NCBI RefSeq assembly: GCF_964355755.1
Contig: NC_092672.1
Coordinates: forward strand, 5,456,001 to 5,520,000
Length of the DNA: 64,000 nucleotides
Direction: 5' to 3'
DNA from: Antedon mediterranea
Taxonomy: Eukaryota > Animalia > Echinodermata
A program made the translations under genes and the position numbers. The notes beneath the pieces are model-generated. The model ran no database searches, was not told the origin of the DNA, and worked only from the letters and a program-made list of their open reading frames with translations. Below are positions 17,101 to 57,608 of this stretch, one piece after another. How positions within the stretch are numbered: position 1 is the stretch's first letter; every line of letters starts with the position of its first letter.

Positions 17101-19437
17101 ACGTGGAATGTAAAACATTACAGTAACAATTGGAGAAAAAGAATCAAACTCTACAATTCATTACTTTGACAAAAACATAACAAAAATTATTAACAATTAA
17201 ATTGATAGGCTAGAGACACAAACTGCATTCACAATGTATACCAAGTTTGATATAAAAAACTATAGATTAAACCAAATATTCGAGGTGAAAATGTGGAATT
17301 TATGATTGTTTAGAATAAGTCTGTTAACAGTAGAAAAGGTTCGCCAATTGTTAACTTTAGTAATATTAGTTTTAGAGACTGATTGTGAGACAAGATTTCT
17401 TTTTATAGCATTTAGCACTTATGTACGTTACGTAGCTTAGAGATCTTCATAATGTATTTTCTAATATTTCTATTGCTCTTTTTAGAATAACATCTACTAC
17501 TATCTTTTTAACTAAAAGCAACACGCTTACGTTTGAAGGTGAGCTTTTTCCTATTAGTAAGAAACTTTTGCTCTTTTGGGTACAGTTACTATTTTCTTAA
17601 CTTTTTATTGCTTTCAGTTCTATTTCTCTCTCAATTATTCACTCTATTCTAAATGCTAAAACATAATTAACTACATCTTCAACAAGACTAATTAAAGATT
17701 AAGTAGAAACCGCACTTCCTGCTACAAAGCAAGCGAGGAAGTTGGAATGGGTGGGGTATAGAAGAACTCTTTATGATTATTTGTGTTGGCTTTTGTACTT
17801 CTGTAGGTAGCTGGAGAAGTTCTTTCAAACGCTGCTGATGCTTGTACCACCACAATGGACGTGGCTTATCGTGACTGTAAGGTGGTCTTAAATCGAATAT
17901 ACGAAAACTGTATACTTAAGTTAAGCAAGACTAAAATACGTAAGTTATGATTAATTCATTTGGCCTAAATGGTCTATGTCACAAAATATACTTATGCAAC
18001 ATGATGCTATTGAACATGATATTCCCTGATATTATGAGTTAAAACATCCGTTTCAGTAAGATCACTCATTTTCCTTGCTAACTAAATTTAAACATCAAAT
18101 GAAATATGAAATAAACTTGAAAATGTCAATAATATTTTTCAGCCGTTGAGCTATGCAAGCCACTTGATATAGATCCACTGTGCGAGATCATTTCCTTTGG
18201 AAACAGTATTTGTCAAGCGCCAGAGTTTGGCAGAGCAATTGTCGACGACGTAGGAGATGCCATCCAACATATATCAAATAAGATCAACGACGTCTTTCAG
18301 ACAGATATTCATTTTGAAGCTCACTGGGACACCAAAAGAAACGCAAGTAAATCTGCTGCTGGAATCGCAAGGGCGGTTCGACAAGAGCTTGAAGAAACTT
18401 TTAACATCTTTGACACCGCTGTGCTATTTGCGGATCGTCTGTTGGCACTATCCGTTGTGTATGTTCTCTACAGAGCGTATCTATATCATAAATTATATCT
18501 GACAAAAGATAGATTTGATAATTTTTACATTACAAAGGAATTCCGAGATCTTGATGTAAAAAGAACAGAAAGTGGTAAGGAATCGATATTACCACTGAAG
18601 AAACTAGAACGTGGAAAACTTATAGACTTAAAAACATTGGCATTGTCTAAGGTAGAAAGGGGAACCTTTTTGCTAGGTTTTATAACAATTTTTATGTATG
18701 TATTAATTGCTGGAATAATAATAATTGTGGATTATGGCATGTTTTATCTGCTTGATATAATTTCAAGACATGGACAGATTGAATATGAACTAACCGGTGG
18801 AGGAAAAGCTAATATGGACATTGCTGGAACTGGAGTGGTATCAGAATTTGCAAGAGCTTTATTGGGAGATGGCTTCGACACAAACAATGAGCACAACGCT
18901 TCTACCACAATCAACGAGTGTCTTCCACATCCACAAAGACCAGATAAGCAAACTAACATTATCATTGGTGCTCTGTATGGTGTAGCTATCCTAATGGTTC
19001 TTTTCCAATCCTATGCTTTAAGACTACGTCGCTGGATTGCATCGTTCTATTACCCAGCACGAGAAGCAGCACGTATAAACTATCTCTACAGTCAAACTCT
19101 TAAAAAACGCAAGACAATTCGTGACATGTTGCAACAGCTTATAAAAGAGAATGACAGAGAACAAAAAGCTCTGGAAAAAGTCAGCTTTCTATCTTGGATG
19201 TCGGCTAATAACACTTGTTGTCGTAGGATTCTTTGTCGCAACACTCGCGTTTGTATCGCGTGTGCTTCTGATGAAAACGGAGATAAGTTTTATAAATGTG
19301 AGACGATGGATTGTAAGGGAGCATACTGTGTTGAATGTATAAAAGAGGTCGGAGAATTGTGTACTCTTTGTGAAGAACCTTTGAATTATAATGTGGGAGA
19401 CACGGGTTCAGTCCAATGGAATCCTTATGTAGAGTAG
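14164..19437 (+). CDS. DC-STAMP-domain membrane protein with C-terminal C4C4 RING (DCST1/DCST2/sneaky/SPE-42 family)
   Basis: Exons 14164-14442, 15304-15640, 15992-16155, 16928-17098, 17807-17939 and 18143-19437. Motifs: RCIAALMAPTLCTSRGRA...GPVANIFHN, YLTKDRFDNFYITKEF...ILPLKKLE, CLPHP, YALRLRRWIASFYYPAREAARINYLY, and an 8-Cys tail CIAC...CVEC...CTLC. Probable 5'UTR intron about 13463-14140. Paralog identity not resolved. Confidence 0.9.
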
Positions 19438-20900: not shown

Positions 20901-23900
20901 ATGGCGGCAGCAGCGAAGGCATTTCAGAAAGTTTCCAGACAACTTTTTAGGTCAAAAGTGTGTTTTTTGGGTTAGTTTTTACAATGTTACATACATTTTA
21001 TGAGATTATATATGTTGCTTAACCAACTTAAATGTTGAATACAAAAATCGGTAGCGCCCAAGTAGATATTTATGTTAGTTGTTGCTAGGCCCATGACTTG
21101 GACAGGTCGACGGTGATTATAGCATTACTGCCCGTGTTGATTTAGTACTAGTGACGTATGCGTTATACGCACAAGAACCAGGCCTAGGCTAGACCGCTTT
21201 TGATTTGAAATTGGTCGTGTAGTAGTACGAAAAGCAAATATTAGTAAAGTAAATAAGTGTAATATATAGGACTATTGCCAACTGGGTCGTATTGCCCTAC
21301 AATAAATAATGAATTAAATAAAATAAGAAATTGGAAAATATAAATAATGTTTTATTTATATAGATAGTACTAGTAGTAGGGCCTAGCCTACTACTTCTTA
21401 GCTAGCTAGCTAGCCTTGCTGCCTACTATGTATACATTAATGTATATAGCTAGCCAGAGTCAGAGGCCCTATCTATTTAGTAGCGGTATATTCTGACTTC
21501 CCTAGCTACTAGTTAAACATTGAAGCAAATTGGCAGTAGCCTGAACTAATTCCATCAAGTGTAAATGTAATCAATCTACCTAGCCAAGCCCGGGTCTAAT
21601 TAAACTTCGCTTTTGGGCATTTATATTATACAGTATCTTATAACACACAATTAATGTTGTTAAAAAAGTGTTTGTGGTAGATTTCATCGTAATATTAATA
21701 TATGCATTTGATAGATGGTACCCTTATGTACTGTACCAGCAATATTGAGATTTTGCATCATTACGCTGTAATTGAATAGAACATGGTCCCAGTAATGAAA
21801 TCCTACTGGTCTGCTAATATGTAATCACTGCCTTGCTAGGTAACCCATTACAAAGAAAATATGATAAATATGTTATTTAAATTAGTTCTTAGGTATGATC
21901 CCACTTAGTCTACCAAATACAATTTCATATTGAGTAATGGATAGTTGTTGGTTACAATATTTAATATTTTAGTTATTCAATTTCTGCCATACAATACAAA
22001 GAAAAAGACAAAACGAAATATAAAAGGCAAGGAAAGACCAAACAGCTCTTTGTTTTTCAAATATAAATCATCAAATATTTAAAAGTTCAAGATACATACT
22101 TTACAGTACATACTGTACAATGTTGTTGGAGATTTATAAGTTATGCATTGTTTTTTAATTAGTTTTATAAAGAAATCTTAATTTATAGGCCAAAAGATTA
22201 AACTGTAAATAATATTAAAGAGGAGATATAAAAAAAACATAAAATAACGAAAAACATTTATTAGATTTTACAATTATTTTTTCTAAAACATTAGATGAGA
22301 GGGAGGGTGGTGTTCAACCACAAAAGATAAAACAAAATCTGAATTGCTAACTTTTTTTACAGGGTCATCATCTTCAATATGTAAGGCACACAGCTTGGCG
22401 TCTCTGTCTGAGACACATGCGATGCTTAGGAAGACATGTAGAGACTTTGCTGATAATGAGCTTGCACCAATTGCAGGAGAATTGGACAAGGAACATCGAT
22501 ATCCCAAAGAACAGGTAAAACCTTGTCTACACTATCAAACTTTATGTGACACAAAAATGTGATGATGTCGTATCACTACCATATTTGACCACATCACACT
22601 TTTTTTGTCAAACTAGTTTGATAGATAGTGTAGACAGAGCTTAAGAGTTGAAATACAGACATGCCAAAACATTTGAGGGTGGTATAGCAGTTTTAGGTAA
22701 TTCCCTTGTATGGTTGGTTGATCAACACTTAAATAATAATGTCTGTAAAATTTTAATATTTAAATAAAGACTTATTCATAGTGGGCTATCAGTGGTGTGT
22801 TAAACCAAAATAATATTTTTGACAACAATTGTAATGTAATTGAATTTTAATGTTATTCAATTCATCTCATATTATCTAAATTATGTAAAAACAAAATTTA
22901 TCGGGATGTACGAAAAAGCGTTGTTAAATCAATGCGTTAGAATAGGACAAGATGGCCGACCAAACTTTGTTTGTACCCAGTGCAGTCGGTAGCCAGGAAA
23001 CGTGACGTCACTTTTTCTCCCTATTATATTTGAAGTTTCTATATTGCTTGTCAAATTATAATATATAGATTGCAATGCATTATTAATATATCTTATCTTC
23101 CAAACTTGACCTTATACAAAGTCAAATGTACTAGCTAGCCTTATACTTCTTGAGTTAGTACAACCCTATCCAGCCTATTTTAGATGTTTTTATATTAACT
23201 GACTGTGGATGCATGTGCTATTTAATACAAAATGTCTAATCAAATCTATTGCTTATTAAAAAAAACTTAAATGTCATGCTTGCTTGACAGTCACATCTCC
23301 TTCATTTTTAACTAACTGTACTTGCTTGCTTGATATTTAAAATCTGTCATTAGCCATCATCAACCTGATCACATTATAATACTGTATTACCTGTGTCATT
23401 ACAACCATTGTTTTCATCATCATCATTGCCATCATTAAGTAGGTCGCTGTGTACAGACAGATAGTTCTATTCTATTTTTGTTGGGCCTATTTTTACAAGA
23501 AATAACAGTTAGAGAAAAATGGCAAAATCTGAACAGAGTTGTCAAAACATTGTAATACTAATCCTATATGATAACTTAACCACATAAAACTCCTAGAAAG
23601 TAGGAAGCCTTTTTCCTTTTTTTCCTGACTGTTAATTTATTATTATTTAGTAGTTATTATTTTACTATCTTAAGCATCATCTCCTATTTCATTGTATCTT
23701 TCATCAGGTGAAAAAATTAGGAGAGCTCGGCCTAATGGCAGTTGACGTTCCAGAAAAATATGGCGGGACAGGCTTAGATTACTTAGCGTATGCAATAGCT
23801 ATTGAGGAGATCAGTAGAGGATGTGCTAGTTGTGGTGTTATTATGAGTGTTAATAATGTAAGTTGATGCATACTAAAATAATAATGTAATAATAATGTAA

Positions 23901-26900
23901 TAATAATGTAAGTTGATGCATACTAAAATCAATGCCAATTTTAGGTTATTTAAGCTTGGTTCCCACTAGGGACGCAACTGAATGACACAAGTTGAACATA
24001 AGTAATTTGACCAATCACAAGCTATGGATTATTCAAACTGTCGCCTGTCATTGGTCAACTTTACTTGCATTGTGTCTACATCCTTGTGTATCTAGTTAGA
24101 ACCAGGCTAGGTAAAGGCAAAGGTTATATTAACTTCTACACCGTACATACACATGATAGCTTGTGTGTGAAGTAAGGTAAGGATATAATAAGTTTACAGA
24201 TCATAATTACTGTAGATGAGGTTCTATGTCATGGAAAAAAGTGTGCAGATTTGTTCTACCTGGTAAGGTAAGTATAAGGGAAAAGGATACCTACTGGGTA
24301 GCTGTTCAGATTAGCAATTGTGGTTTTTAGTGGTGTTGTATTTGCTATTTCAAGCGTTCCATCAAGCTTTTGTATACTGTTTATTCTAGAAAAAAAGTTT
24401 TTGTTGGAAATTTTTAAGTGCTGTCAGGTTTGAGTTGGTAATAATTTAGATTTATATAGGTCTGTAAATAAAAAAAAATAATTAAAAAAAAGGATTCAAG
24501 TTTAGGATGTCAGACAACAAACATACCAGTAATTGTTAAAGTACATAAGAAGTTTTAGCATTGAAAGACACAATAGTGGGACTTGAAATGAATACTTGAG
24601 ACATCTAGCACCTAAATTGAGATAGAGAAAAACAAGACAGATAGCAAGTGTGACAGTTTGTTGAATTCTTTTATAGATTAGGCACTCAGAGACACTTTTG
24701 GGCCAACCTACAAAAAACACATCATCATACAGTACCTACTATATTGCTCTTACCATCATTTACAATGCATTGATTAAGCAAATATATTTTATGCAATTCT
24801 ATATTAATGTTCGTATCTTATTCTACTTTATATCCCATCTTGTTTAACATTACTAATCCATGCAAATTCATACTGGATTCTTATTACCAATGAAGCTTCT
24901 GTTTTTGGTATCATTTCTGCATTTCATTTTCATCATGCCAATAGGCTAGTCATGTCATAGGCTGCCATTCTGACGTTCCTTAGCCATCTGCTTGGCTTGC
25001 ATAGTCTGCCTACAAATTGTAGAAATGCCCTGTACTTTGTATCAACCTCTACTTGGGTCTGGTCAGGTAAAGATGATGGGTGATCTAGGCCTGATGGCAC
25101 TTCAAGTACCAGATACATATGGTGGATCTGATCTAGATACTATGTCTTATGCCATTGCGATGGAGGAGATCAGCCGAGGGTGTGCAGCAACAGGGACAAT
25201 TTTAAGTGCTCACAATGTAAGTACCATATTGACTGCTATGAAAGAAACCAACGGCAACCGGTAAGATATTAATCATTATTGGTAGCCTAGGTCTGTATGC
25301 ATATGTATTTGTACTACTGTATGTCTCCAGTCAATACTATGAAAGAGGTCAGGTCATTGCTGTACATTTTGAGACTAGATGTGATTGATTTTGGTGTACA
25401 GCATTCATGTGTGTAAGTATACCTCATTTGTGAGTTTTTATTATTAGTGAATCTTAATATAAAATGTATAAAAACAAAAAATGTAAATAAAAATAAAATA
25501 CATGTAAAAACATATTGAACTATAAACACAATTGAATCTATGTGTACAACAATTTTTATTTAAACGTGAACTCATAACTGACTTTGATATGAATGTAAAG
25601 GAACATCATTAACAATATGACATCAACAACCATATGAATGACATCAACAACCATATGAATGACATCAACAACCATATGAGTGACATCATCAACCATCTGA
25701 TGAAGTGTATCCAGTAAGTCAGATACACAGAATTTTGCTTTCATACAAGGGTTAAATCGAATGAATTATTTTGATAATAGTTGTTTTTTAGTGAAAACAC
25801 TTCCTTTTCTTTCACTTGCAGTCATTATATTTATCACCAATAATGGAATTTGGAAATGAAGAACAAAAACAGAAATATATATCACCTTTTGTGGATGGCA
25901 GTCGTGTCGGTTGCTTTGGTCTAAGTGAACCAGGTATTGTAGAACCATTACATATCCAATATATTATTTAAGTAAATGTGGGGATAGCCTAAAACCCTAC
26001 CTTTCAACTTTTCTTTCTATGGTATTTTGTCTGCCAGACCATTCCATTTCAAAACTGAATGTAAATCAATATTATTCAGACAGTAATAAATATTATTTGT
26101 GACCAAATATGAATTTTAAGCATTACTATTATTATGATATTGCACTGAAGAAGAGTTTAGTGTTATCCAAAAGTTCTGCAACGTTTTAGCTTTCTGATTA
26201 TTTTATTTGTATCTCCATCCAGCCACTACTGATACCCACAGCATTTTCTTTTGATTTATAATTATGATATTATAAACAGTTAACTTTAAAATGTAACTGA
26301 TACACTGTTGAATAATTATTTAAATCAAAATAACAGCCATAACTGTCCAATCAGATGTCAGAATGTCACCGACCAATAAAATAACCAGCTTCTTTGAATT
26401 CTTACTTGAACCAACTCTTTTAGGTAATGGCAGTGATGCAGGCGCAGCGTCCACTACAGCACATCTGGATGGTGATCACTGGGTCTTGAATGGAACCAAG
26501 GCATGGATTACCAACGGGTATGAGAGCGAGGCCTCTGTCGTGTTTGCCACAACAGATAGAAATTTAAAACACAAGGTAATAAAATACAGTAGAACTCCTA
26601 TTAATGGGACATTTTTAGAACCAAAAATTTATTTTAAAATATAAATTTCCCCTCATTCTTTTCAGATAAATGTCCTGGTTGTTTTGTGTTGATTTGTCGT
26701 GTCCCATGTCCCGCTTGTCTTTGTCCCTTTGTTTAATGTCTGAGGCAGACCCTTTTCAAGGGTCCTGTATCTGGGAACCTGCTTTTTCCCAGATTTATTG
26801 TTATTTTTCTATGTTATTTCTTAATATTCCATTATTGTTTAAATCTTAAAAGGAAGTAAATAAATGTTATTTTGAATTGAGTGCAAGGTGTCCCCTTAAA

Positions 26901-28993
26901 AAAAGTGGTGTTTTCATAAGGAATAGTCTAAAAAAAAAAGGTCTAATAAACTTTGGTAATATCATGTATTTAATTCATCAATATGCCTTTGATTTTTAAT
27001 ATCCAGGGTATTAGTGCTTTTATTGTTCCAAAGCCCATTGATGGGTTATCACTGGGTAAGAAAGAAGACAAGCTAGGAATCCGGGCTACGTCTACTACAT
27101 ACCTTATATTTGAAGATTGTAGAATACCAAAAGAGAATCTTTTAGGAGAACCTGGATTTGGATTTAAAATTGCTATGGTAAGTTTATGATAATTATTACA
27201 GTACCTCCTCTAAGGAGGTTATGTTTTCATGTATGTTTTTTTTATTATTTTTTTTAAAAACTTTATTTAATGAGGGTGACATGCATGAGGCCCTCAACAA
27301 TGTGTGTATGTTTCTTTATTTCTATATTTGTTCATTAGCAAGATTACTCAAAAAGTTATTGCCCAATTTTCATAAAAATTGTAAAAGATGATTTCATAGC
27401 TGTATGGAAACACGTCATTAAATTTTCAATGCCTAGGCAAAGGTTTGTGCTCTTTGAGTGTAGTTCTAGTTTAAAAATAGATTTATTATGTATAACTGTT
27501 ATTTTTTTATGCATTGGTTATTTTTTTTATGTTTATTTTTTATTCTAACTCTTTTATATATTTATTTATATTGGTTCTTTTTAGACAACTCTGGATGCAG
27601 GTAGGATAGGAATTGCAGCGCAAGGTGTTGGTATTGCACAGGTTGGTTGAAGTCATCTGCCTTCTTTTACTTAATAAATACAGTGGCGTAACGGCTATGA
27701 ACGATCACTGGCTAAACCCAGGAGCCCGGAGCTTATGGGGGCCCCTGAGCAGTGCTCAGAGAAAAATCAGGCATTAAAATATGTCGAAAAGGGATAACAC
27801 TGCTCGATCCCTCCAGCGTTGGAGGGCCACTTAGGGTTCCTAAACAAGGGTCCTCAGGTCTCCGATTAAGTAGCTTTATTCTTAACTTGAGCTTTTCTTT
27901 TTACAGGCTGCCCTGGATTGTGCTATTGATTATGCAGCGAAGCGTGAAGCATTTGGAGCTCCGATAAGTAAGATGCAAATGATACAATCCAAGCTAGCTG
28001 ATATGGAGGTTAAAGTTCAAAGTTCACGGTTATTGACCTGGCAAGCTGCTGCATTCAAAGATGCAGGACTGAATTTTACAAAAGTAAGTGTATTAACTTG
28101 TGGAGAAGGTAGTGAATAAAAAAAGGATGTGTTTTTTAGATATAGTTATTTAATTCGTTAGACGTATTTTGGTAAAAATCAATAGGTTGTTAAGACAAGC
28201 AATCACTTCTAAACAGGTCTGCATCATTGTATTTTGTTTTGTGTTAATGTGATGACATAATTGTAATTCAATGGAATACAGTATTGGCTAATATGAGAGT
28301 AAAGAAGAGTAGGGGATCATGGGTCCATAGAGGGCCTAATCCGAAATTAAATATCATCTGTATATACAATTTTTTACGTTAAAACAGTATACATATTTAT
28401 GTTTTGACTTGTTGTCAACAAGTCTTTATCTGGCAATGACTAAATGTTAGTGGTTGCTAGTTGTAGAGCATTCGTAAACTTGGTAAACTAAAGATGAAAA
28501 CATTTTTCGCAGGATAAATACATTTACCTTTAATACTTTTTGGCAATTTATTTTGTAATAGGAGGCAGCAATGGCCAAACTAGCAGCATCAGAAGCAGCA
28601 ACCTTCAATGCACATCAGGTAATGTGTTACTGAATATGATATACTGATAATAATACTGATAAGCAATAATCTGATCATTATGTTCTCGTCAACACTTTTG
28701 TGCAGCATTTAAGTACGCTTTCATTGCCATATTTTATTTGCATGCATAAACAAAAATAAACAACTTAGCATCTTTGCCCTGTAATCTTCATACAAAATAT
28801 ATTTGTTCCATTGCTCATTGTGTTTTATTTTTAGGCCATTCAAGTACTCGGTGGAATGGGTTACGTAACGGATATGCCTGCGGAGAGGCACTACAGGGAC
28901 GCTAGAATCACAGAAATATATGAAGGAACTAGTGAAATTCAACGACTGGTTATTGCTGGACAACTTTTAAAAGAGTTTTCTCAGAAAGTTTAA
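20901..28993 (+). CDS. ACADS: Short-chain acyl-CoA dehydrogenase, mitochondrial
   Basis: Exons 20901-20970, 22363-22514, [23708-23857 or 25067-25216], 25822-25933, 26424-26575, 27007-27177, 27585-27641, 27907-28083, 28562-28618, 28835-28993. Motifs: [38 protein letters not shown], and the catalytic [14 protein letters not shown]. Confidence 0.97.
22519..22641. mobile_element. MITE family A copy inserted in the ACADS intron-2 donor site
   Basis: TAA TSD at 22516-22518 and 22642-22644. Confidence 0.8.
23708..23857 (+). CDS. ACADS: ACADS exon 3a (canonical SCAD-type)
   Basis: cag|GTG...AAT|gtaagt, 150 nt, encoding [50 protein letters not shown]. Confidence 0.95.
23951..24108. mobile_element. 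MITE family B copy between ACADS exons 3a and 3b
   Basis: AAGCTTGGTTCCCACTAG...CTAGTTAGAACCAGGCT. Confidence 0.65.
25067..25216 (+). CDS. ACADS: ACADS exon 3b (alternative, probably mutually exclusive with 3a)
   Basis: cag|GTA...AAT|gtaagt, 150 nt, same phase as 3a, encoding [50 protein letters not shown]. Confidence 0.85.
25615..25700. repeat. 21-bp minisatellite, about 4 copies
   Basis: Unit ATGACATCAACAACCATATGA. Confidence 0.85.
27681..27860. mobile_element. hAT-like MITE (family D), partial copy
   Basis: CAGTGGCGTAACGGCTATGA...CACTGGCTAAACCCAGG, homologous to 59410-59578. Confidence 0.6.
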
Positions 28994-30560: not shown

Positions 30561-30999
30561 AAAACATATTTTTATTTTAATTTTAAAAAAAAAGGAGTGG
30601 GTCGCAAATCGGTACAGGTATCTTTACTAGTGGTGTCATAACAATAAATAGACAATACAGTTTTTTATTTAACTAGGAAAATTTCAACCCTCTTAATTTA
30701 ATAAAAAATGTGACTAAGTACATCTTCAAACAGTTGCTGAAAACCCTTTCTTTCGCATAACATATGAAATGACGTCATTTCTACCTACCTCCAGCCTTGT
30801 GGTCGTAGCGCTTTAGAAAAAAATTATTTTGGTTAGGCGCTATACAAAAGACAATTATTATTATACATGGATACGATGACATCATATCACTACCATATTT
30901 GGTCATATCACTACCATATTTGGGCACCTCACACATTTTTTTTGTCAAACTAGTTTGATAGTGTAGATAGAGCAGGAATTGATAATCAAAATAATATTT

Positions 31000-33900
31000 T
31001 TATAATCCAAATTTGGATTTATATTTATTTAACATTTCTAAAGTTATAGAACATCCTCCACAAACAATGACCACTGCTGATTGGATAACAGTTTGTAACT
31101 TGCCCTGCTCTTGTAGTTTTGGTATTACATTGCTATAGATACCAGCGAGGGCGGCACCACATGCTGGCTCTACTAGAATTCTATGTTCATCTATAAAGTA
31201 TAGAACAAATTTGAAATTTAATTCTCAATATTATTATTTATTATTACTATTCACATGCATGCATTATGGTGGCTTGTTGAACCGTTTTATCATTCACTAG
31301 ATTTTCCATGATATCTCAATATACAAATAATGAATATTTATGAATGCAATAGTATAAATATTTTCATGGTGAGAATAGCACATTTCATTATTCACTGAAT
31401 GTAAATATTTGTTCCATTGCACGAATATAAACAAGTAGATTATTGTTTATTTTGAGGAGGGTCACGATTGCATATAACAAGAACGACCACTCATATATCA
31501 ATCCACTTGATGTTGTATGAGTTCAATGGAGCATGTATTTTATATCATGTTACCCACAATCATCAAATCAAATAATAACAATCTACTAAAGATAAAGATG
31601 ATGTATAAAATGAACATGGTCAGTCATTTTACTATAGATTGGTTTTGACTGGATAATTTTTTGACTTATATTGTGTGCAAATGTGTATGAGACGAGATGA
31701 AAAATGTGATGTGCTCATATGGACAGGATGATGTCATATATATAGAAGTCAGAACAAAGTAGTGTCCTACCTGTGAACCTGAGACAAGCATCAACAGCCT
31801 CCTTATCAGATATGACAACTGAATGCACCTCATGCTGACTGTAATAATCAAGGGCTTGCTGACATGCAGTCAGTGCTCCAAGACACTTGGCAACACTATA
31901 TAAAAATATGAAAGATTATGAAGAGGCATATAGAAGCTATTGCAGTGTGTTGAAAAGGCATACCACTGGTGCCTGATTAGACCCTCTACAGACCCACACT
32001 ATTCTTTCACCTTGGTTATATTAGATGTTTTGCCCTATTCTAACCAATGCCATCTAACAACAGGATGCTGAGCTCTGGAGATCAAAGGGTTTATCTGTGG
32101 CTGCGACATGATCAGTTCCATGCCCCTTAACAGACACCGCGCACCACATAGAACATGTACATAGTATAGTACTGTTGGTATTTGTCGCAGCCAGACATAA
32201 GATCAAAGGAATGTTACGATCGAGTTCCTATCTTAGCAAGGCGAGCTCAGTTTCCTGTTGTTAGATTGCCTGGTTCTGACATACATTGTATTTTATACCA
32301 ATTACAATTCAGAACATGCAAGTGATTTGAGTGGAACTTGACCCCACAACATCTAGAACACAAGCCTGGCAATCATATGTCTAGACCACCAAGATTGCAT
32401 TGATATCAAGCCCAATTTTAGCTCCCGATACAAAGTTACTTTGCAGTTTGTATAATACATACCTTGTTATGTCGTCTAGTGTTACCAACTCGCCTTTCTT
32501 AACAGCTGCATTGTAACAATCGGCTCCAACAGTCTCAATAGTAATGACAGGTACATCATTCCATCCAACCTTCTTTAAGCCCTCGATCACGCCACAAAAC
32601 AGACCACCACCTCCAACAACTGTTATCAGCACATCAGGCTTATGGGTCATGTCGTCTGCTATTTCTTCAATCATTGAACTATGACCCTGCCTGGGAGTAC
32701 AAGAATGATAAATTAGAAATGTATCAAAAAGTCAGTCTTTTTCATAACTAACAAAAATATATAAGGTAAACTAATACTATATATCAATGTATAGGTGTCT
32801 TAGTCTTAAGCTCTGTCTACACTATCAAACTAGTTTAAAAAAGTGTGCCCAAATATGGTAGTGATATGACATCACCATGTCCATATATGGCCACATCACA
32901 TGTTTTTGTCACATAAAGTTTGATAGTGTAAACAGAGCTTTAGAGGTACTCTTACCATATATCTGGATGATCAAAGGGGTGAATAATGGTGCCGTTTGAC
33001 TGACTAGCAATTTCTAACGCTCTTTTGTTTGCTTCGTCCCACACCTAAAACAACACAAATACAATCGGATTTTAGTTGACAGTACACGAAAATTACATAC
33101 TATATACATATTAAATTTATTCAGGTATATAGTAAAAACATGCAGCCAGAAGTCTGAAATTGTTGATTTAAAAAATATATTATTATTATTACAACTTGTA
33201 ATACCTTTCCATGATATTCTACTGTTGCGTTCTCATCTCTTAATTTTTGAGCTACAAATTCTGGTGTGCTTTTTGGTATGACAACTGTCGCTTTGACGCC
33301 AAGCTTTCTGGCTGCATAAGCTGCTGCTATCCCAGCATTCCCACCTGTATTTTACAACAATTCACAGCAAATTGTTTCACACACATTTATTTCAATGTTA
33401 TTGTTAGGCAGTAAATGTTGTATATCTATCCATTACAGTTGTATAAAGCTCTGTCTACACTATCAAACTCGTTTGACAACAAAAGTGTGTGCCCAAATAT
33501 GGTAGTGATGTGGCCAAGTGGTATGACATGTCCATTTGGGCACATCACATTTTTTTGTCACATAAAGTTTGATAGTGTAGACAGAGCTTTAGAGCAGAAA
33601 TACATGACAAAATAAATGATCTAACAACTTGAATAATTTGAACTTACCTGATGAAGAGACAATATGCTTTGAGCCTTTCTCAATTGCCTAAAAAAACAAA
33701 TACAAACATTTGAGCATAACTAGTAGGCTCTATTTACAATATTATGTTCGTACAGCATACTATACAGTTGATTCTATCCTTTTGCTTATACTCATAGAAG
33801 GCGAAATATTTATACAGTACCAATATGGACAACACCTATTTAGAGGATACCCTATTATAAAAGTTACACTTTGTTGAGTTCAAAAGGTGTCACTTTAAAA

Positions 33901-52938: not shown

Positions 52939-53764
52939 TCGTGTTTGGGTAGATGTCTATCTAGTATGCCTATTTTTAACCGACTAAAATGTTTAATAAA
53001 TCATACATGATGGCATTGATGATCCTGTGAAATGACGTAATTGAAGCCACCATGGGAATGCAACCTCTAGAACTTAGAATACAGGTAGTGTTACTGGGGG
53101 ATGTAGGCGTCGGAAAGACAACGGCTGTTGAAAAAGTTCATGAATGAAGATTACAAACATACTAGTGACATTCAAGAGAAAGTAATCATGAGAAATGGAC
53201 AAAAAGTTTGGCTGATAACTATAAGAGACACGGCAGGTAAGTTAACCAATTTTCTGCTTGATTTTTGTTTTCTTTTATGAATGTTTTTTTTATATTTGTT
53301 GTGTATTTTCTGATATATTTATTGAAGTGGTATATTTTATCTTTTATGTGCTACTTGGTAAGAGGATTCACAGGCTCTTGTCATAAGGATTTAGTTCCCT
53401 TTTGTGTTTCTTGCCAATTACTTTGTAATTGTTTGTTATTTGTTGTTGTTGTTGATTGGCAATAAAGAATAATAATTTTGCTAGTTCACTAAAATCAGTC
53501 ACAATTCTTATATACTACTATGATACAAGTTAATTTGCGTACAACAGTTGTATCCATCACATTTAATTTATAAATTCAGTTCTAATATTTTGTGTAGGTC
53601 TTGAAAAACACAACAGTATTACCACAATCATACTATAAAGGTGTCAAGAGGTTCATCTTCGTATATGACGTCAACAGTGCAAACTACTCCGTCAACAATG
53701 CGAACAACTCCTTCAACAACCTTCCAAAATGGTAATGTGTACAGTATTTGAATACGAATACGAA

Positions 53765-56700
53765 TACCCTTGCTCGCGTCTACCTACATCAACTAAATGT
53801 TCTAAATAGATTACCCTTGCTCGCGTCTACCTACATCAACTAAATGTTCTGAATAGATTACCCTTGCTCGCGTCTACCTACATCAACTAAATGTTCTAAA
53901 TAAATTACTCTTGCTCGCGTCTACCTACATCAACTAAATGTTCTAAATAGATTACTCTTGCTCGCGTCTACCTACATCAACTAAATGTTCTAAATAGATT
54001 ACCCTTGCTCGCGTCTACCTACATCAACTAAATGTTCTGAATAGATTACCCTTGCTCGCGTCTACCTACATCAACTAAATGTTCTAAATAAATTACTCTT
54101 GCTCGCGTCTACCTACATCAACTAAATGTTCTAAATAGATTACTCTTGCTCGCGTCTACCTACATCAACTAAATGTTCTAAATAAATTACTCTTGCTCGC
54201 GTCTACCTACATCAACTAAATGTTCTAAATAAATTACCCTTGCACACGTCTACCTACATAAACTAAATGTTCTGAATAGATTACCCTTGCTCGCGTATAC
54301 CTACATCAACTAAATGTTCTAAATAGATTACTCTTGCTCGCGTATACCTACATCAACTAAATGTTCTGAATAGATTACCCTTGCTCGCGTCTACCTACAT
54401 AAACTAAATGTTCTAAATAAATTACCCTTGCACACGTCTACCTACATAAACTAAATGTTCTGAATAGATTACCCTTGCTCGCGTCTACCTACATAAACTA
54501 AATGTTCTAAATAGATTACCCTTGCTCGCGTCTACCTACATCAATTAAATGTTCTAAATAGATTACTCTTGCTCGCGTCTACCTACATCAACTAAATGTT
54601 CTAAATAGATTACCCTTGCTCGCGTCTACCTACATCAACTAAATGTTCTAAATAAATTACCCTTGCACACGTCTACCTACATCAACTAAATGTTCTAAAT
54701 AGATTACCCTTGCTCGCGTCTACCTAAATCAACTAAATGTTCTAAATAGATTACTCTTGCTCGCGTCTACCTACATCAACTAAATGTTCTAAATAGATTA
54801 CCCTTGCTCGCGTCTACCTACATCAACTAAATGTTCTAAATAGATTACCATTGCTCGCGTCTACCTACATCAACTAAATGTTCTGAATAGATTACCCTTG
54901 CTCGCGTCTACCTACATCAACTAAATGTTCTAAATAGATTACCCTTGCTCGCGTCTACCTACATCAACTAAATGTTCTAAATAGATTACCCTTGCTCGCG
55001 TCTACCTACATCAACTAAATGTTCTAAATAGATTACCCTTGCTTGCGTATACCTACATCAACTAAATGTTCTGAATAGATTACCCTTGCTCGCGTCTACC
55101 TACATCAACTAAATGTTCTAAATAGATTACTCTTGCTCGCGTCTACCTACATCAACTAAATGTTCTAAATAGATTACCCTTGCTCGCGTCTACCTACATC
55201 AACTAAATGTTCTAAATAAATTACCCTTGCACACGTCTACCTACATCAACTAAATGTTCTAAATAGATTACCCTTGCTCGCGTCTACCTACATCAACTAA
55301 ATGTTCTAAATAGATTACCCTTGCTCGCGTCTACCTACATCAACTAAATGTTCTAAATAAATTACCCTTGCACACGTCTACCTACATAAACTAAATGTTC
55401 TGAATAGATTACCCTTGCTCGCGTATACCTACATCAACTAAATGTTCTAAATAGATTACTCTTGCTCGCGTATACCTACATCAACTAAATGTTCTGAATA
55501 GATTACCCTTGCTCGCGTCTACCTACATAAACTAAATGTTCTAAATAAATTACCCTTGCACACGTCTACCTACATAAACTAAATGTTCTGAATAGATTAC
55601 CCTTGCTCGCGTCTACCTACATAAACTAAATGTTCTAAATAGATTACCCTTGCTCGCGTCTACCTACATCAACTAAATGTTCTAAATAGATTACTCTTGC
55701 TCGCGTCTACCTACATCAACTAAATGTTCTAAATAGATTACCCTTGCTCACGTCTACCTACATCAACTAAATGTTCTAAATAGATTACCCTTGCTCGCGT
55801 CTACCTACATCAACTAAATGTTCTAAATAGATTACCCTTGCTCGCGTCTACCTACATCAACTAAATGTTCTAAATAAATTACCCTTGCACACGTCTACCT
55901 ACATCAACTAAATGTTCTAAATAGATTACCCTTGCTCGCGTCTACCTACATCAACTAAATGTTCTAAATAGATTACTCTTGCTCGCGTCTACCTACATCA
56001 ACTAAATGTTCTAAATAGATTACCCTTGCTCGCGTCTACCTACATCAACTAAATGTTCTAAATAGATTACCATTGCTCGCGTCTACCTACATCAACTAAA
56101 TGTTCTGAATAGATTACCCTTGCTCGCGTCTACCTACATCAACTAAATGTTCTAAATAGATTACCCTTGCTCGCGTCTACCTACATCAACTAAATGTTCT
56201 AAATAGATTACCCTTGCTCGCGTCTACCTACATCAACTAAATGTTCTAAATAGATTACCCTTGCTCGCGTATACCTACATCAACTAAATGTTCTGAATAG
56301 ATTACCCTTGCTCGCGTCTACCTACATCAACTAAATGTTCTAAATAGATTACCCTTGCTCGCGTCTACCAAAGAACTTATAACACAAGAATCTCCTGTTC
56401 TTCAATTTGCATTCAAAACACAGTATCGGAAGTACAGGGTTAAAAGGTCAAACTGGGCGACGCCATTTCACAGCATGGAGCAGCGCCCCCTCCAAACTAG
56501 GAAGTCAATTACTCTACCCCTCTAGAGTATTAGCAGATCCCCTCTATGATTTTGACTTTCTAATTTGATGCGGGCGCCCTACTCCTCAGTCAATTACTCT
56601 ATCCCCCCTAGAGCATTAGCAGATCCCCTCTATGATTTTGACTTTCTAATTTGATGCGGGCGCCCTACTCCATGGCTCACAATGGCGCCACCCATAGCTC

Positions 56701-57608
56701 TATTCTATCCCACAATGCCTTTCGAAATTGTTACGCGCTTCGGACGAACAGGAGATTCTTGTGTTATAAGTTCTTTGGCGTCTACCTACATCAACTAAAT
56801 GTTCTAAATAGATTACCCTTGCTCTCGTCTACCTACATCAACTAAATGTTCTAAATAGATTACTCTTGCTCTCGTCTACCTACATCAACTAAATGTTCTA
56901 AATAGATTACTCTTGCTCGCGTCTACCTACATCAACTAAATGTTCTGAATAGATTACCCTTGCTCGCGTCTACCTACATCAACTAAATGTTCTAAATAGA
57001 TTACTCTTGCTCTCGTCTACCTACATCAACTAAATGTTCTAAATAGATTACTCTTGCTCTCGTCTACCTACATCAACTAAATGTTCTAAATAGATTACTC
57101 TTGCTCTCGTCTACCTACATCAACTAAATGTTCTAAATAGATTACCCTTGCTCGCGTCTACCTACATCAACTAAATGTTCTGAATAGATTACCCTTGCTC
57201 GCGTCTACCTACATCAACTAAATGTTCTGAATAGATTACTCTTGCTCGCGTCTACCTACATCAACTAAATGTTCTAAATAGATTACTCTTGCTCTCGTCT
57301 ACCTACATCAACTAAATGTTCTAAATAGATTACTCTTGCTCTCGTCTACCTACATCAACTAAATGTTCTAAATAGATTACTCTTGCTCTCGTCTACCTAC
57401 ATCAACTAAATGTTCTAAATAGATTACCCTTGCTCGCGTCTACCTACATCAACTAAATGTTCTGAATAGATTACCCTTGCTCGCGTCTACCTACATCAAC
57501 TAAATGTTCTGAATAGATTACTCTTGCTCGCGTCTACCTACATCAACTAAATGTTCTAAATAGATTACCCTTGCTCGCGTCTACCTACATCAACTAAATG
57601 TTCTAAAT
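53765..57608. repeat. 47-bp tandem satellite/minisatellite, about 55 + 18 copies, in intron 2 of the Rab pseudogene
   Basis: Unit TTACCCTTGCTCGCGTCTACCTACATCAACTAAATGTTCTAAATAGA; no spacers. Confidence 0.97.
56369..56777. mobile_element. 409-bp non-autonomous DNA transposon, P-element-like, inserted in the satellite
   Basis: Perfect 32-bp TIR CAAAGAACTTATAACACAAGAATCTCCTGTTC; perfect 8-bp TSD GCGTCTAC (56361-56368, 56778-56785); internal ~85-bp tandem duplication. Confidence 0.9.

What the first reader, a model, noticed from the sequence alone, without database searches (positions are those of the whole stretch)
23708..25216. ACADS has two ancient, intact copies of exon 3: candidate mutually exclusive exons that swap the substrate-pocket helix
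Seen: two 150-nt exons (23708-23857 and 25067-25216) with the same phase, canonical AG/GTAAGT borders and no stop or indel. They share 31/50 residues; 17 of those 31 codons differ synonymously, and the flanking introns show no similarity. That pattern indicates an old duplication kept under purifying selection. Exon 3a ends GVIMSVNN like vertebrate SCAD; exon 3b ends GTILSAHN. Known: this exon encodes the helical segment whose end helps form the acyl-chain cavity of acyl-CoA dehydrogenases, and xAH/xIH motifs occur here in IVD (GAHSN), ACAD8 (SIHN) and bacterial butyryl-CoA dehydrogenases (SAHT). Inference: one gene may encode two enzymes with different acyl-CoA specificity by exon switching, analogous to PKM or KHK. 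I do not know of this being described for ACADS. Including both exons would keep the frame but duplicate a core helix set, so active exclusion is expected.
Basis: partly seen in the sequence, partly recalled or inferred. Interest (0 to 1): 0.88.

Follow-up and report, generated by a model that had tools for sequence, protein, structure and literature searches.

The report
Twin alternative exons in crinoid ACADS
A feather star's gene for the fat-burning enzyme SCAD carries two old, intact copies of one exon, kept in two feather-star families and likely spliced one at a time; the second copy likely fine-tunes rather than switches which short fatty acids the enzyme accepts, a familiar kind of gene design.

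Summary
Observation confirmed exactly. The window's ACADS matches NCBI's Antedon mediterranea models letter for letter, and these already list 3a-only, 3b-only and 3a+3b isoforms; Anneissia japonica has 3a-only and 3b-only models. The copies pair by type across both species (3a 48/50, 3b 40/50 identical), and 3b keeps 21 of 23 family-conserved positions: an old duplication under selection. One spliced RNA run shows exon 2 joined to 3a, in a contig whose length, among the mixes simulated, fits only a 3a-or-3b bubble (3b inferred, not seen). The substrate-switch idea is weaker than proposed. The residues that block longer chains in human SCAD (S117, I275, Y391) are the same in both isoforms, and the Ala-His motif is an ordinary second state of animal SCADs. 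Yet 3b swaps two Val for Thr and Ala at positions that line the cavity in IVD and MCAD. Best reading: pocket tuning by homologous alternative exons, like ACOX1 3a/3b. No paper found. The scan had not noted this gene, but noted twin exons in HADH and an ACOT elsewhere.

The parts
20901..20970 (+). ACADS exon 1 coding part (ATG; likely mitochondrial targeting peptide)
   Evidence: spliced to exon 2 in RNA contig record 1 of X1
22363..22514 (+). exon 2 (shared; phase-0 donor to 3a or 3b)
   Evidence: RNA contig ends at 22516, the fork between 3a and the other path
23708..23857 (+). exon 3a: ancestral-like copy, ends V-N-N; NCBI Antedon isoform X2
   Evidence: spliced RNA contig record 7 of X1; 46-47/50 identical to brittle star, starfish and Saccoglossus exon 3
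23858..25066 (+). 1209-nt intron between the two copies (GT-AG)
   Evidence: no convincing pairing element
25067..25216 (+). exon 3b: diverged copy, ends A-H-N; NCBI Antedon isoform X3
   Evidence: 40/50 identical to Anneissia 3b; RNA use inferred from contig geometry
25822..25933 (+). exon 4 (shared; rest of helix E)
26424..26575 (+). exon 5
27007..27177 (+). exon 6
27585..27641 (+). exon 7 (carries I279, equivalent of human I275, chain-length barrier)
27907..28083 (+). exon 8
28562..28618 (+). exon 9
28835..28993 (+). exon 10 to stop (Y395 and catalytic E396, equivalents of human Y391/E392)

Best explanation
The feather-star ACADS gene holds two tandem homologous copies of exon 3, both kept by selection, and likely splices in one or the other, so that 3b would give a second short-chain acyl-CoA dehydrogenase with a likely retuned, not switched, substrate pocket. 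Shown: the duplication, its conservation in two crinoid families, exon 2-to-3a splicing in RNA, and unchanged barrier and catalytic residues. Inferred: 3b use in RNA, 3a as the commoner form, rarity of co-inclusion, and the pocket effect. 3a stayed ancestral-like; 3b fixed ten changes shared by both species, among them V-to-T, M-to-L, V-to-A and N-to-H around the barrier serine on helix E. These would slightly open or reshape the cavity base (broader C4-C6 or 2-methyl-branched tolerance, or altered kinetics or stability). Exon choice is probably set by ordinary splicing regulators acting on the weaker 3b acceptor.
For: Saturated synonymous and low non-synonymous divergence between copies. 3a-versus-3b differences: 2 of 23 conserved versus 17 of 27 variable positions, p = 1e-4. 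3a+3a and 3b+3b each form starred clades. NCBI models 3a-only and 3b-only in both species. X1 contig of 203 nt = 28 + 150 + 25, reproduced by a 3a|3b bubble with 1 of 24 simulated single changes (synonymous, in the only place where the unlisted mismatch can lie); co-inclusion mixes gave 178, 208 or 673, skipping alone 210, pre-mRNA 149-208. Exon positions 44 and 48 align with IVD L127/A131 and MCAD T121/A125, named as cavity residues. 3b isoform model pLDDT 88, best match rat SCAD, rmsd 1.5 A. Precedent: ACOX1 3a/3b differ in activity.
Against: No 3b-containing contig was seen; the bubble argument assumes k = 31 and unseen letters, and a fork 26 nt into exon 4 would give the same length. One RNA run only. 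NCBI lists a co-inclusion isoform X1. S117, I275 and Y391 are identical in both isoforms. A-H is the exon-3 state of the SCADs fetched for tunicates, copepods, rotifers and some insects and decapods, so it may be a neutral compensated pair. 3b evolves faster than the rest of the protein (10/50 versus 21/326, p = 0.004) and Anneissia 3b changes an almost invariant Asn to Ile. No assay, no contact map.
Confidence: 0.5

Rival explanations
1. True substrate switch: 3b makes an enzyme whose best substrate is a branched or longer acyl-CoA, so one gene serves two pathways.
For: T and A at two cavity-equivalent positions match MCAD T121/A125. T at 44 together with A-H is rare: 4 of 183 peptides, two of them the crinoid 3b copies. 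Two residues near the active site accompany the substrate switch in coq-2.
Against: Barrier residues S117/I275/Y391 and catalytic E392 are shared. Branched-chain specificity in IBD and IVD comes from replacing the Y391-equivalent, which lies in shared exon 10. The helix-E deletion that widens MCAD and IBD is absent: both copies are 50 residues.
Confidence: 0.2
2. Catalytically equivalent isoforms: V-N and A-H are a compensated pair, and both exons persist because each is used in different tissues, stages or conditions (subfunctionalised regulation, stability or assembly).
For: Positions 48-49 covary: V-N 112, A-H 59, A-N 5, V-H 1 of 183. At least 10 state changes on the tree of the rest of the protein; independent pairs 5 same, 0 opposite, 1 no difference, p = 0.06. 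Barrier unchanged.
Against: 3b carries further shared changes at positions conserved elsewhere (L96M 2/58, A97S 2/58, V114T 4/58 in other rows). Asymmetric divergence from outgroups: 3a 44-47/50, 3b 31-34/50 to brittle star, starfish and Saccoglossus.
Confidence: 0.22
3. 3b is a relaxed, slowly decaying or unproductive copy, used at low level or co-included as splicing noise.
For: Faster rate than the rest of the protein and departures G92D (Antedon) and N120I (Anneissia) at conserved sites; co-inclusion model X1 exists; weak acceptor.
Against: Open frame, exact length and splice sites kept while synonymous sites saturated; 21 of 23 conserved positions kept in both species, within the range of other SCAD rows (9 of 58 miss two or more); no fork directly after 3a in X1.
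Confidence: 0.07
4. Assembly or haplotype artefact.
For: None specific; no listed DNA contig spans the whole stretch laid.
Against: Copies differ at 53 of 150 nt with unrelated introns; the same pair is in an independent species' gene models.
Confidence: 0.01

Closest known systems
ACOX1 exons 3a/3b (peroxisomal acyl-CoA oxidase 1; PMC12318918, PMC3791418, PMC9741552, passages read)
   Same: Single gene for an FAD-dependent acyl-CoA alpha,beta-dehydrogenating enzyme with two homologous, mutually exclusive exon-3 copies about half identical (28/55 there, 31/50 here); cofactor-binding residues kept in both.
   Different: ACOX1 isoforms are biochemically shown to differ (1a lower on palmitoyl-CoA); here untested. 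Different enzyme family and compartment. Whether the two exons cover the same part of the fold was not tested.
coq-2 exons 6a/6e of helminths, annelids and molluscs (PMC7434440, abstract and passages read)
   Same: Lineage-restricted mutually exclusive exon pair; one copy resembles the pan-eukaryote sequence, the other has a few fixed changes near the active site.
   Different: coq-2e switches substrate, with genetic proof and a known physiology; here the main specificity residues lie outside the changed set and no physiology is known.
Tandem exon duplication-derived substitutions generally, e.g. KHK, PKM (PMC9741552 passages; PMC8373072, PMC7954323, PMC4465641 listings or passages)
   Same: Same-length, same-phase homologous exons; binding residues conserved, neighbours varied.
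   Different: A word search of PMC9741552's main text found no ACAD gene; supplements were not checked. The pair was seen only in crinoids here.
Vertebrate SCAD (ACADS; PDB 1JQI, 2VIG, 7Y0A, 8SGS)
   Same: About 70% identity, same fold (rmsd 1.4-2.3 A), gap-free alignment, catalytic Glu and barrier residues kept.
   Different: No alternative exon 3 in the vertebrate clusters listed.

Membership tests
SCAD / ACADS subfamily | ACAD three-domain fold, best match to SCAD | tested here: met
SCAD / ACADS subfamily | Catalytic Glu392 and barrier S117, I275, Y391 | tested here: met
   S121, I279, Y395, E396 by gap-free alignment to residues named; same in both isoforms
SCAD / ACADS subfamily | Preference for butyryl-CoA | not testable with these tools
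   needs enzyme assay
Tandem-duplicated homologous mutually exclusive exons | Adjacent homologous exons of equal length and phase with intact splice sites | tested here: met
Tandem-duplicated homologous mutually exclusive exons | Both copies conserved in relatives | tested here: met
   Anneissia models, (2 species; protein level only)
Tandem-duplicated homologous mutually exclusive exons | Each copy spliced between the same flanking exons | tested here: inconclusive
   exon 2-to-3a seen in RNA; 3b inferred from contig geometry and NCBI models
Tandem-duplicated homologous mutually exclusive exons | Co-inclusion rare or absent | tested here: inconclusive
   no fork after 3a in one run, but NCBI model X1 includes both; contigs drop rare variants
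Tandem-duplicated homologous mutually exclusive exons | An enforcing mechanism (steric, U2/U12 mismatch, NMD, competing RNA pairing) | tested here: not met
   1209-nt intron, AG-free zone 42 nt, all GT-AG, both 150 nt, no convincing inverted repeat in one species; protein-regulated choice not testable
Substrate-switching exon pair (ACOX1, coq-2 type) | Changed residues line the substrate site | tested here: inconclusive
   positions 44 and 48 map to IVD/MCAD cavity residues but are not in the SCAD lists read; no coordinates available
Substrate-switching exon pair (ACOX1, coq-2 type) | Isoforms differ in substrate use | not testable with these tools
   needs assay
Branched-chain ACADs (IVD, IBD/ACAD8) | Tyr391-equivalent replaced (Gly in IVD, Ile in IBD); IVD catalytic Glu moved to helix G | tested here: not met
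   Y395/E396 retained in shared exon 10

The most novel reading that the evidence does not exclude
Feather stars make two acyl-CoA dehydrogenases of clearly different specificity from one ACADS gene, holding in a single genome both states of a V-N / A-H switch on helix E that has flipped at least ten times across animal SCADs. The pair would then be a natural controlled experiment explaining that switch, and the first exon-switched mitochondrial ACAD. A duplication older than echinoderms with repeated loss is also not excluded (3b falls among A-H exons of other phyla, unstarred; AU p 0.13 and 0.31).
Probability: 0.2. Interest if true: 0.65.

Novelty: new member of a known kind. Interest (0 to 1): 0.4.

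Why it matters
It adds a mitochondrial acyl-CoA dehydrogenase to the list of metabolic enzymes diversified by homologous alternative exons; I found no paper describing this for ACADS, though NCBI's models already hold the isoforms. Because the two proteins differ at only 19 of 418 residues, all in one exon, they offer a clean test of whether the first half of helix E, and the V-N / A-H pair that varies widely across animal SCADs, affects substrate choice. For human SCAD biology it is of modest, indirect value.

Tried and rejected
No whole genome held, so other crinoid ACAD genes and unannotated 3b copies in other echinoderm introns were not checked. No RNA holder on record; X1 was listed as a guess and proved spliced. 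DNA runs X2, X3, X5 show no cover over 3a, which the tool says proves nothing. Contig depths 33.4 (3a) versus 51 (exons 1-2) hint at about two-thirds 3a, but the tool warns against ranking by depth; not used as evidence. Metagenome scan: 0 of 51 loci had a tandem exon-3 pair; they were protist- or bacterial-like, and four held two whole paralogues. Short-protein search: 24 hits, 13 read, none a crinoid 3b. Other animals: 0 of 31 members of 9 echinoderm, hemichordate and amphioxus clusters and 0 of 57 listed (of 73) members of 10 further clusters showed an alternative exon 3; weak, since an alternative isoform can sit in its own cluster as Antedon X3 does. Armadillidium P0003 has two exon-3-like stretches but is two whole genes fused in one model. 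Single-sequence fold was useless (pLDDT 36). Exon-3 trees (50 and 48 columns) cannot date the duplication. Covariation of Tyr95 with His119 not supported. Inverted repeats were AT-rich and unconvincing. No divergence date for the two species was found. Search for SCAD Val90/Val94 papers gave nothing relevant. Six acceptor positions were misplaced; one search corrects them.
Full report
Observation. Two 150-nt, phase-0 exons at 23708-23857 and 25067-25216 have AG and GTAAGT borders, open frames, 31/50 identical residues and 17 synonymous differences among those 31 codons. Third positions are 19/50 identical, pS is 0.78 (saturated) and pN 0.23; the introns share no real similarity, and the window holds no third copy. 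Both peptides match human SCAD residues 71-120 best.

Gene and organism. The 3b peptide is 100% identical to a protein that NCBI names SCAD-like isoform X3 of Antedon mediterranea; the next hit (82%) is isoform X2 of Anneissia japonica, and the other 118 of the 120 hits listed (297 passed, of 305 candidates) are 73% or less. Ten exons from 20901 to 28993 translate exactly to that protein. NCBI holds three Antedon models: X2 with 3a, X3 with 3b, and X1 (468 aa) with both. Anneissia has X1 and X3 with 3a and X2 with 3b, and no co-inclusion model in that 3-member cluster. So the isoforms are already in public annotation. That such models usually rest on RNA alignments is recalled, not checked.

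Age and selection. Across the two species 3a is 48/50 identical, 3b 40/50, and the rest of the mature protein 305/326; within each species 3a and 3b share 31/50. 3a+3a and 3b+3b each form a starred clade, so the duplication predates the split of the two lineages. I found no date for it. Of 23 positions conserved in 90% or more of 58 other SCAD rows, both 3a copies keep 23 and both 3b copies 21; 3a-3b differences fall on 2 of 23 conserved and 17 of 27 variable positions (p = 1e-4). Against this, 3b changes faster than the rest of the protein (p = 0.004), with G92D in Antedon and N120I in Anneissia at conserved sites (human numbering). Cross-species dN/dS could not be computed. 3a is 44-47/50 identical to brittle star, starfish and Saccoglossus exon 3, 3b 31-34/50. 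No alternative exon 3 appeared in 31 members of 9 deuterostome clusters or 57 listed members of 10 further clusters, nor in 51 metagenome loci. A crinoid-only duplication is not rejected (AU p 0.129; 0.311 without the two motif columns); nor is it shown.

RNA. No run was on record as RNA, but X1 is spliced. Its record 1 joins exon 1 to exon 2 and stops at 22516, the two letters that 3a, 3b and the intron share. Record 7 is 203 nt: 28 nt before 3a, 3a, then 25 nt that do not follow the intron, with one mismatch not listed in the table. I infer that listing skips differences within about 30 letters of a contig end, which places it in the last five bases of 3a. Simulating a k = 31 graph, a 3a-or-3b bubble gives 205 with the window's letters and exactly 203/28/25 with 1 of 24 single changes, a synonymous one at 23854 (adding a skipped form does not alter this). 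3a alone gives 1558, 3a plus skipping 210, co-inclusion mixes 178, 208 or 673, and pre-mRNA 149-208. This supports alternative use with little co-inclusion in that sample. It is an inference: 3b's own contig and the 25 letters were not seen, and a fork 26 nt into exon 4 would give the same length.

How exclusion might work. The intervening intron is 1209 nt, all borders are GT-AG, both exons keep frame (so decay would not remove co-inclusion), the AG-free zone before 3b is 42 nt, and inverted repeats are AT-rich and unconvincing. The 3b pyrimidine tract is 0.60, tied for lowest among internal acceptors, versus 0.75 for 3a. Regulated competition with some leak fits best, and fits model X1. This is inferred.

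What the exon changes. With a 62-row alignment the 3b isoform folds confidently (pLDDT 88) and matches rat SCAD at rmsd 1.5 A. The exon covers the end of one helix, a loop, the helix at 99-112 and the first 11 of 21 residues of helix E. Ten differences are fixed in both species: K73M, L74M, E76D, L96M, A97S, I102M, C112T, V114T, M116L, V118A, plus N119H as the eleventh (one search lists 11 FIXED rows; my notes said ten, and 'ten' in Best explanation should be read as eleven). By ungapped local alignment, positions 114 and 118 correspond to IVD L127/A131 and MCAD T121/A125, which PMC10709515 (passages) lists as cavity residues; 3b has T and A there. Helix E shapes the cavity in LCAD, MCAD, IBD and GDH (PMC11153573, PMC5798300, passages). 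But in human SCAD the barrier to longer chains is S117, I275 and Y391 (PMC13027082, section 2.3 read; Ile251 in rat), and all three plus catalytic Glu are identical in both isoforms. The hallmarks of branched-chain ACADs (loss of the Y391 equivalent) and the helix-E deletion are absent.

The A-H motif. Among 183 distinct exon-3 peptides from proteins of 300 aa or more fetched here, positions 118-119 read V-N 112 times, A-H 59, A-N 5, V-H 1, other 6 (the set is biased towards A-H by my queries). A-H marks the SCADs fetched for tunicates, copepods, rotifers and some insects and decapods, changes at least 10 times on the tree of the rest of the protein, and covaries in 5 of 6 independent pairs with none opposite (p = 0.06); some rows may be paralogues. 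C. difficile butyryl-CoA dehydrogenase also reads S-A-H-T. So A-H alone does not signal a new substrate. T114 with A-H is rarer (4 of 183).

Comparison and verdict. This works like ACOX1 3a/3b, whose isoforms differ in activity (PMC12318918, PMC3791418, passages), and is built like coq-2 6a/6e (PMC7434440, abstract and passages). It meets the structural and conservation tests for tandem-duplicated alternative exons; strict exclusion and functional difference are open. Four searches (listings only) found no description for ACADS or crinoids; the library lacks most subscription papers and I read no supplements, where lists of such exons could hold it. Earlier scan notes report twin exons in HADH and an ACOT/BAAT gene in other invertebrate genomes (unchecked). 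Verdict: real, selected, already annotated, a new member of a known kind; pocket tuning 0.5, equivalence 0.22, true switch 0.2; interest 0.4.

Noticed in passing
window, about 50 nt downstream of the 3a donor (23857): A local tandem duplication repeats the last bases of 3a and its donor site 50 nt further on; using that copy would give a 200-nt exon with a frameshift and an in-frame stop at codon 53, a possible decoy or unproductive splice. Not seen in the X1 contigs shown.
   Followed up: partly
P0123 versus P0124 (Anneissia X3/X1); P0126 versus P0235 (Amphiura X1/X2): NCBI isoforms of equal length that differ by one residue (I217V in exon 6; V356E at the exon 8/9 junction). Could be a near-identical duplicated exon or an annotation slip; no second exon 6 in this window.
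   Followed up: no
P0007 (Pollicipes), P0015, P0033: SCAD-like proteins with T114 plus A-H, the rare combination fixed in crinoid 3b; the barnacle protein is closer to 3b (36-37/50) than to 3a (31-32/50) although the rest of the protein is unrelated to crinoids. Possible convergence on the same pocket.
   Followed up: partly
P0074/P0081 (ants) and P0035/P0067 (decapods): Close relatives with opposite states at 118-119; paralogues or unannotated twin exons are both possible.
   Followed up: partly
window 18133-19437 (+): Large last exon of a DC-STAMP-domain gene (PF07782, E 1e-56) ending about 1.5 kb before the ACADS start.
   Followed up: partly
window about 31000-33350 (-): Exons of a PLP-dependent enzyme (PF00291), serine-dehydratase-like by recalled motifs, tail to tail with ACADS.
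   Followed up: partly
window 53757-57608: 47-bp tandem array, 82 copies, 86% matches, interrupted near 56503-56671; causes the strong C skew.
   Followed up: no
window 22516-22646: Very high-copy repeat with an internal inverted repeat at the start of intron 2, a likely small transposon; similar sequence is visible near 30880-30970, 32810-32940 and 33450.
   Followed up: no
window 22415, 22420, 22481: Run X1 differs from the window at three exon-2 sites (one silent, two missense), so it is a different individual or population.
   Followed up: partly
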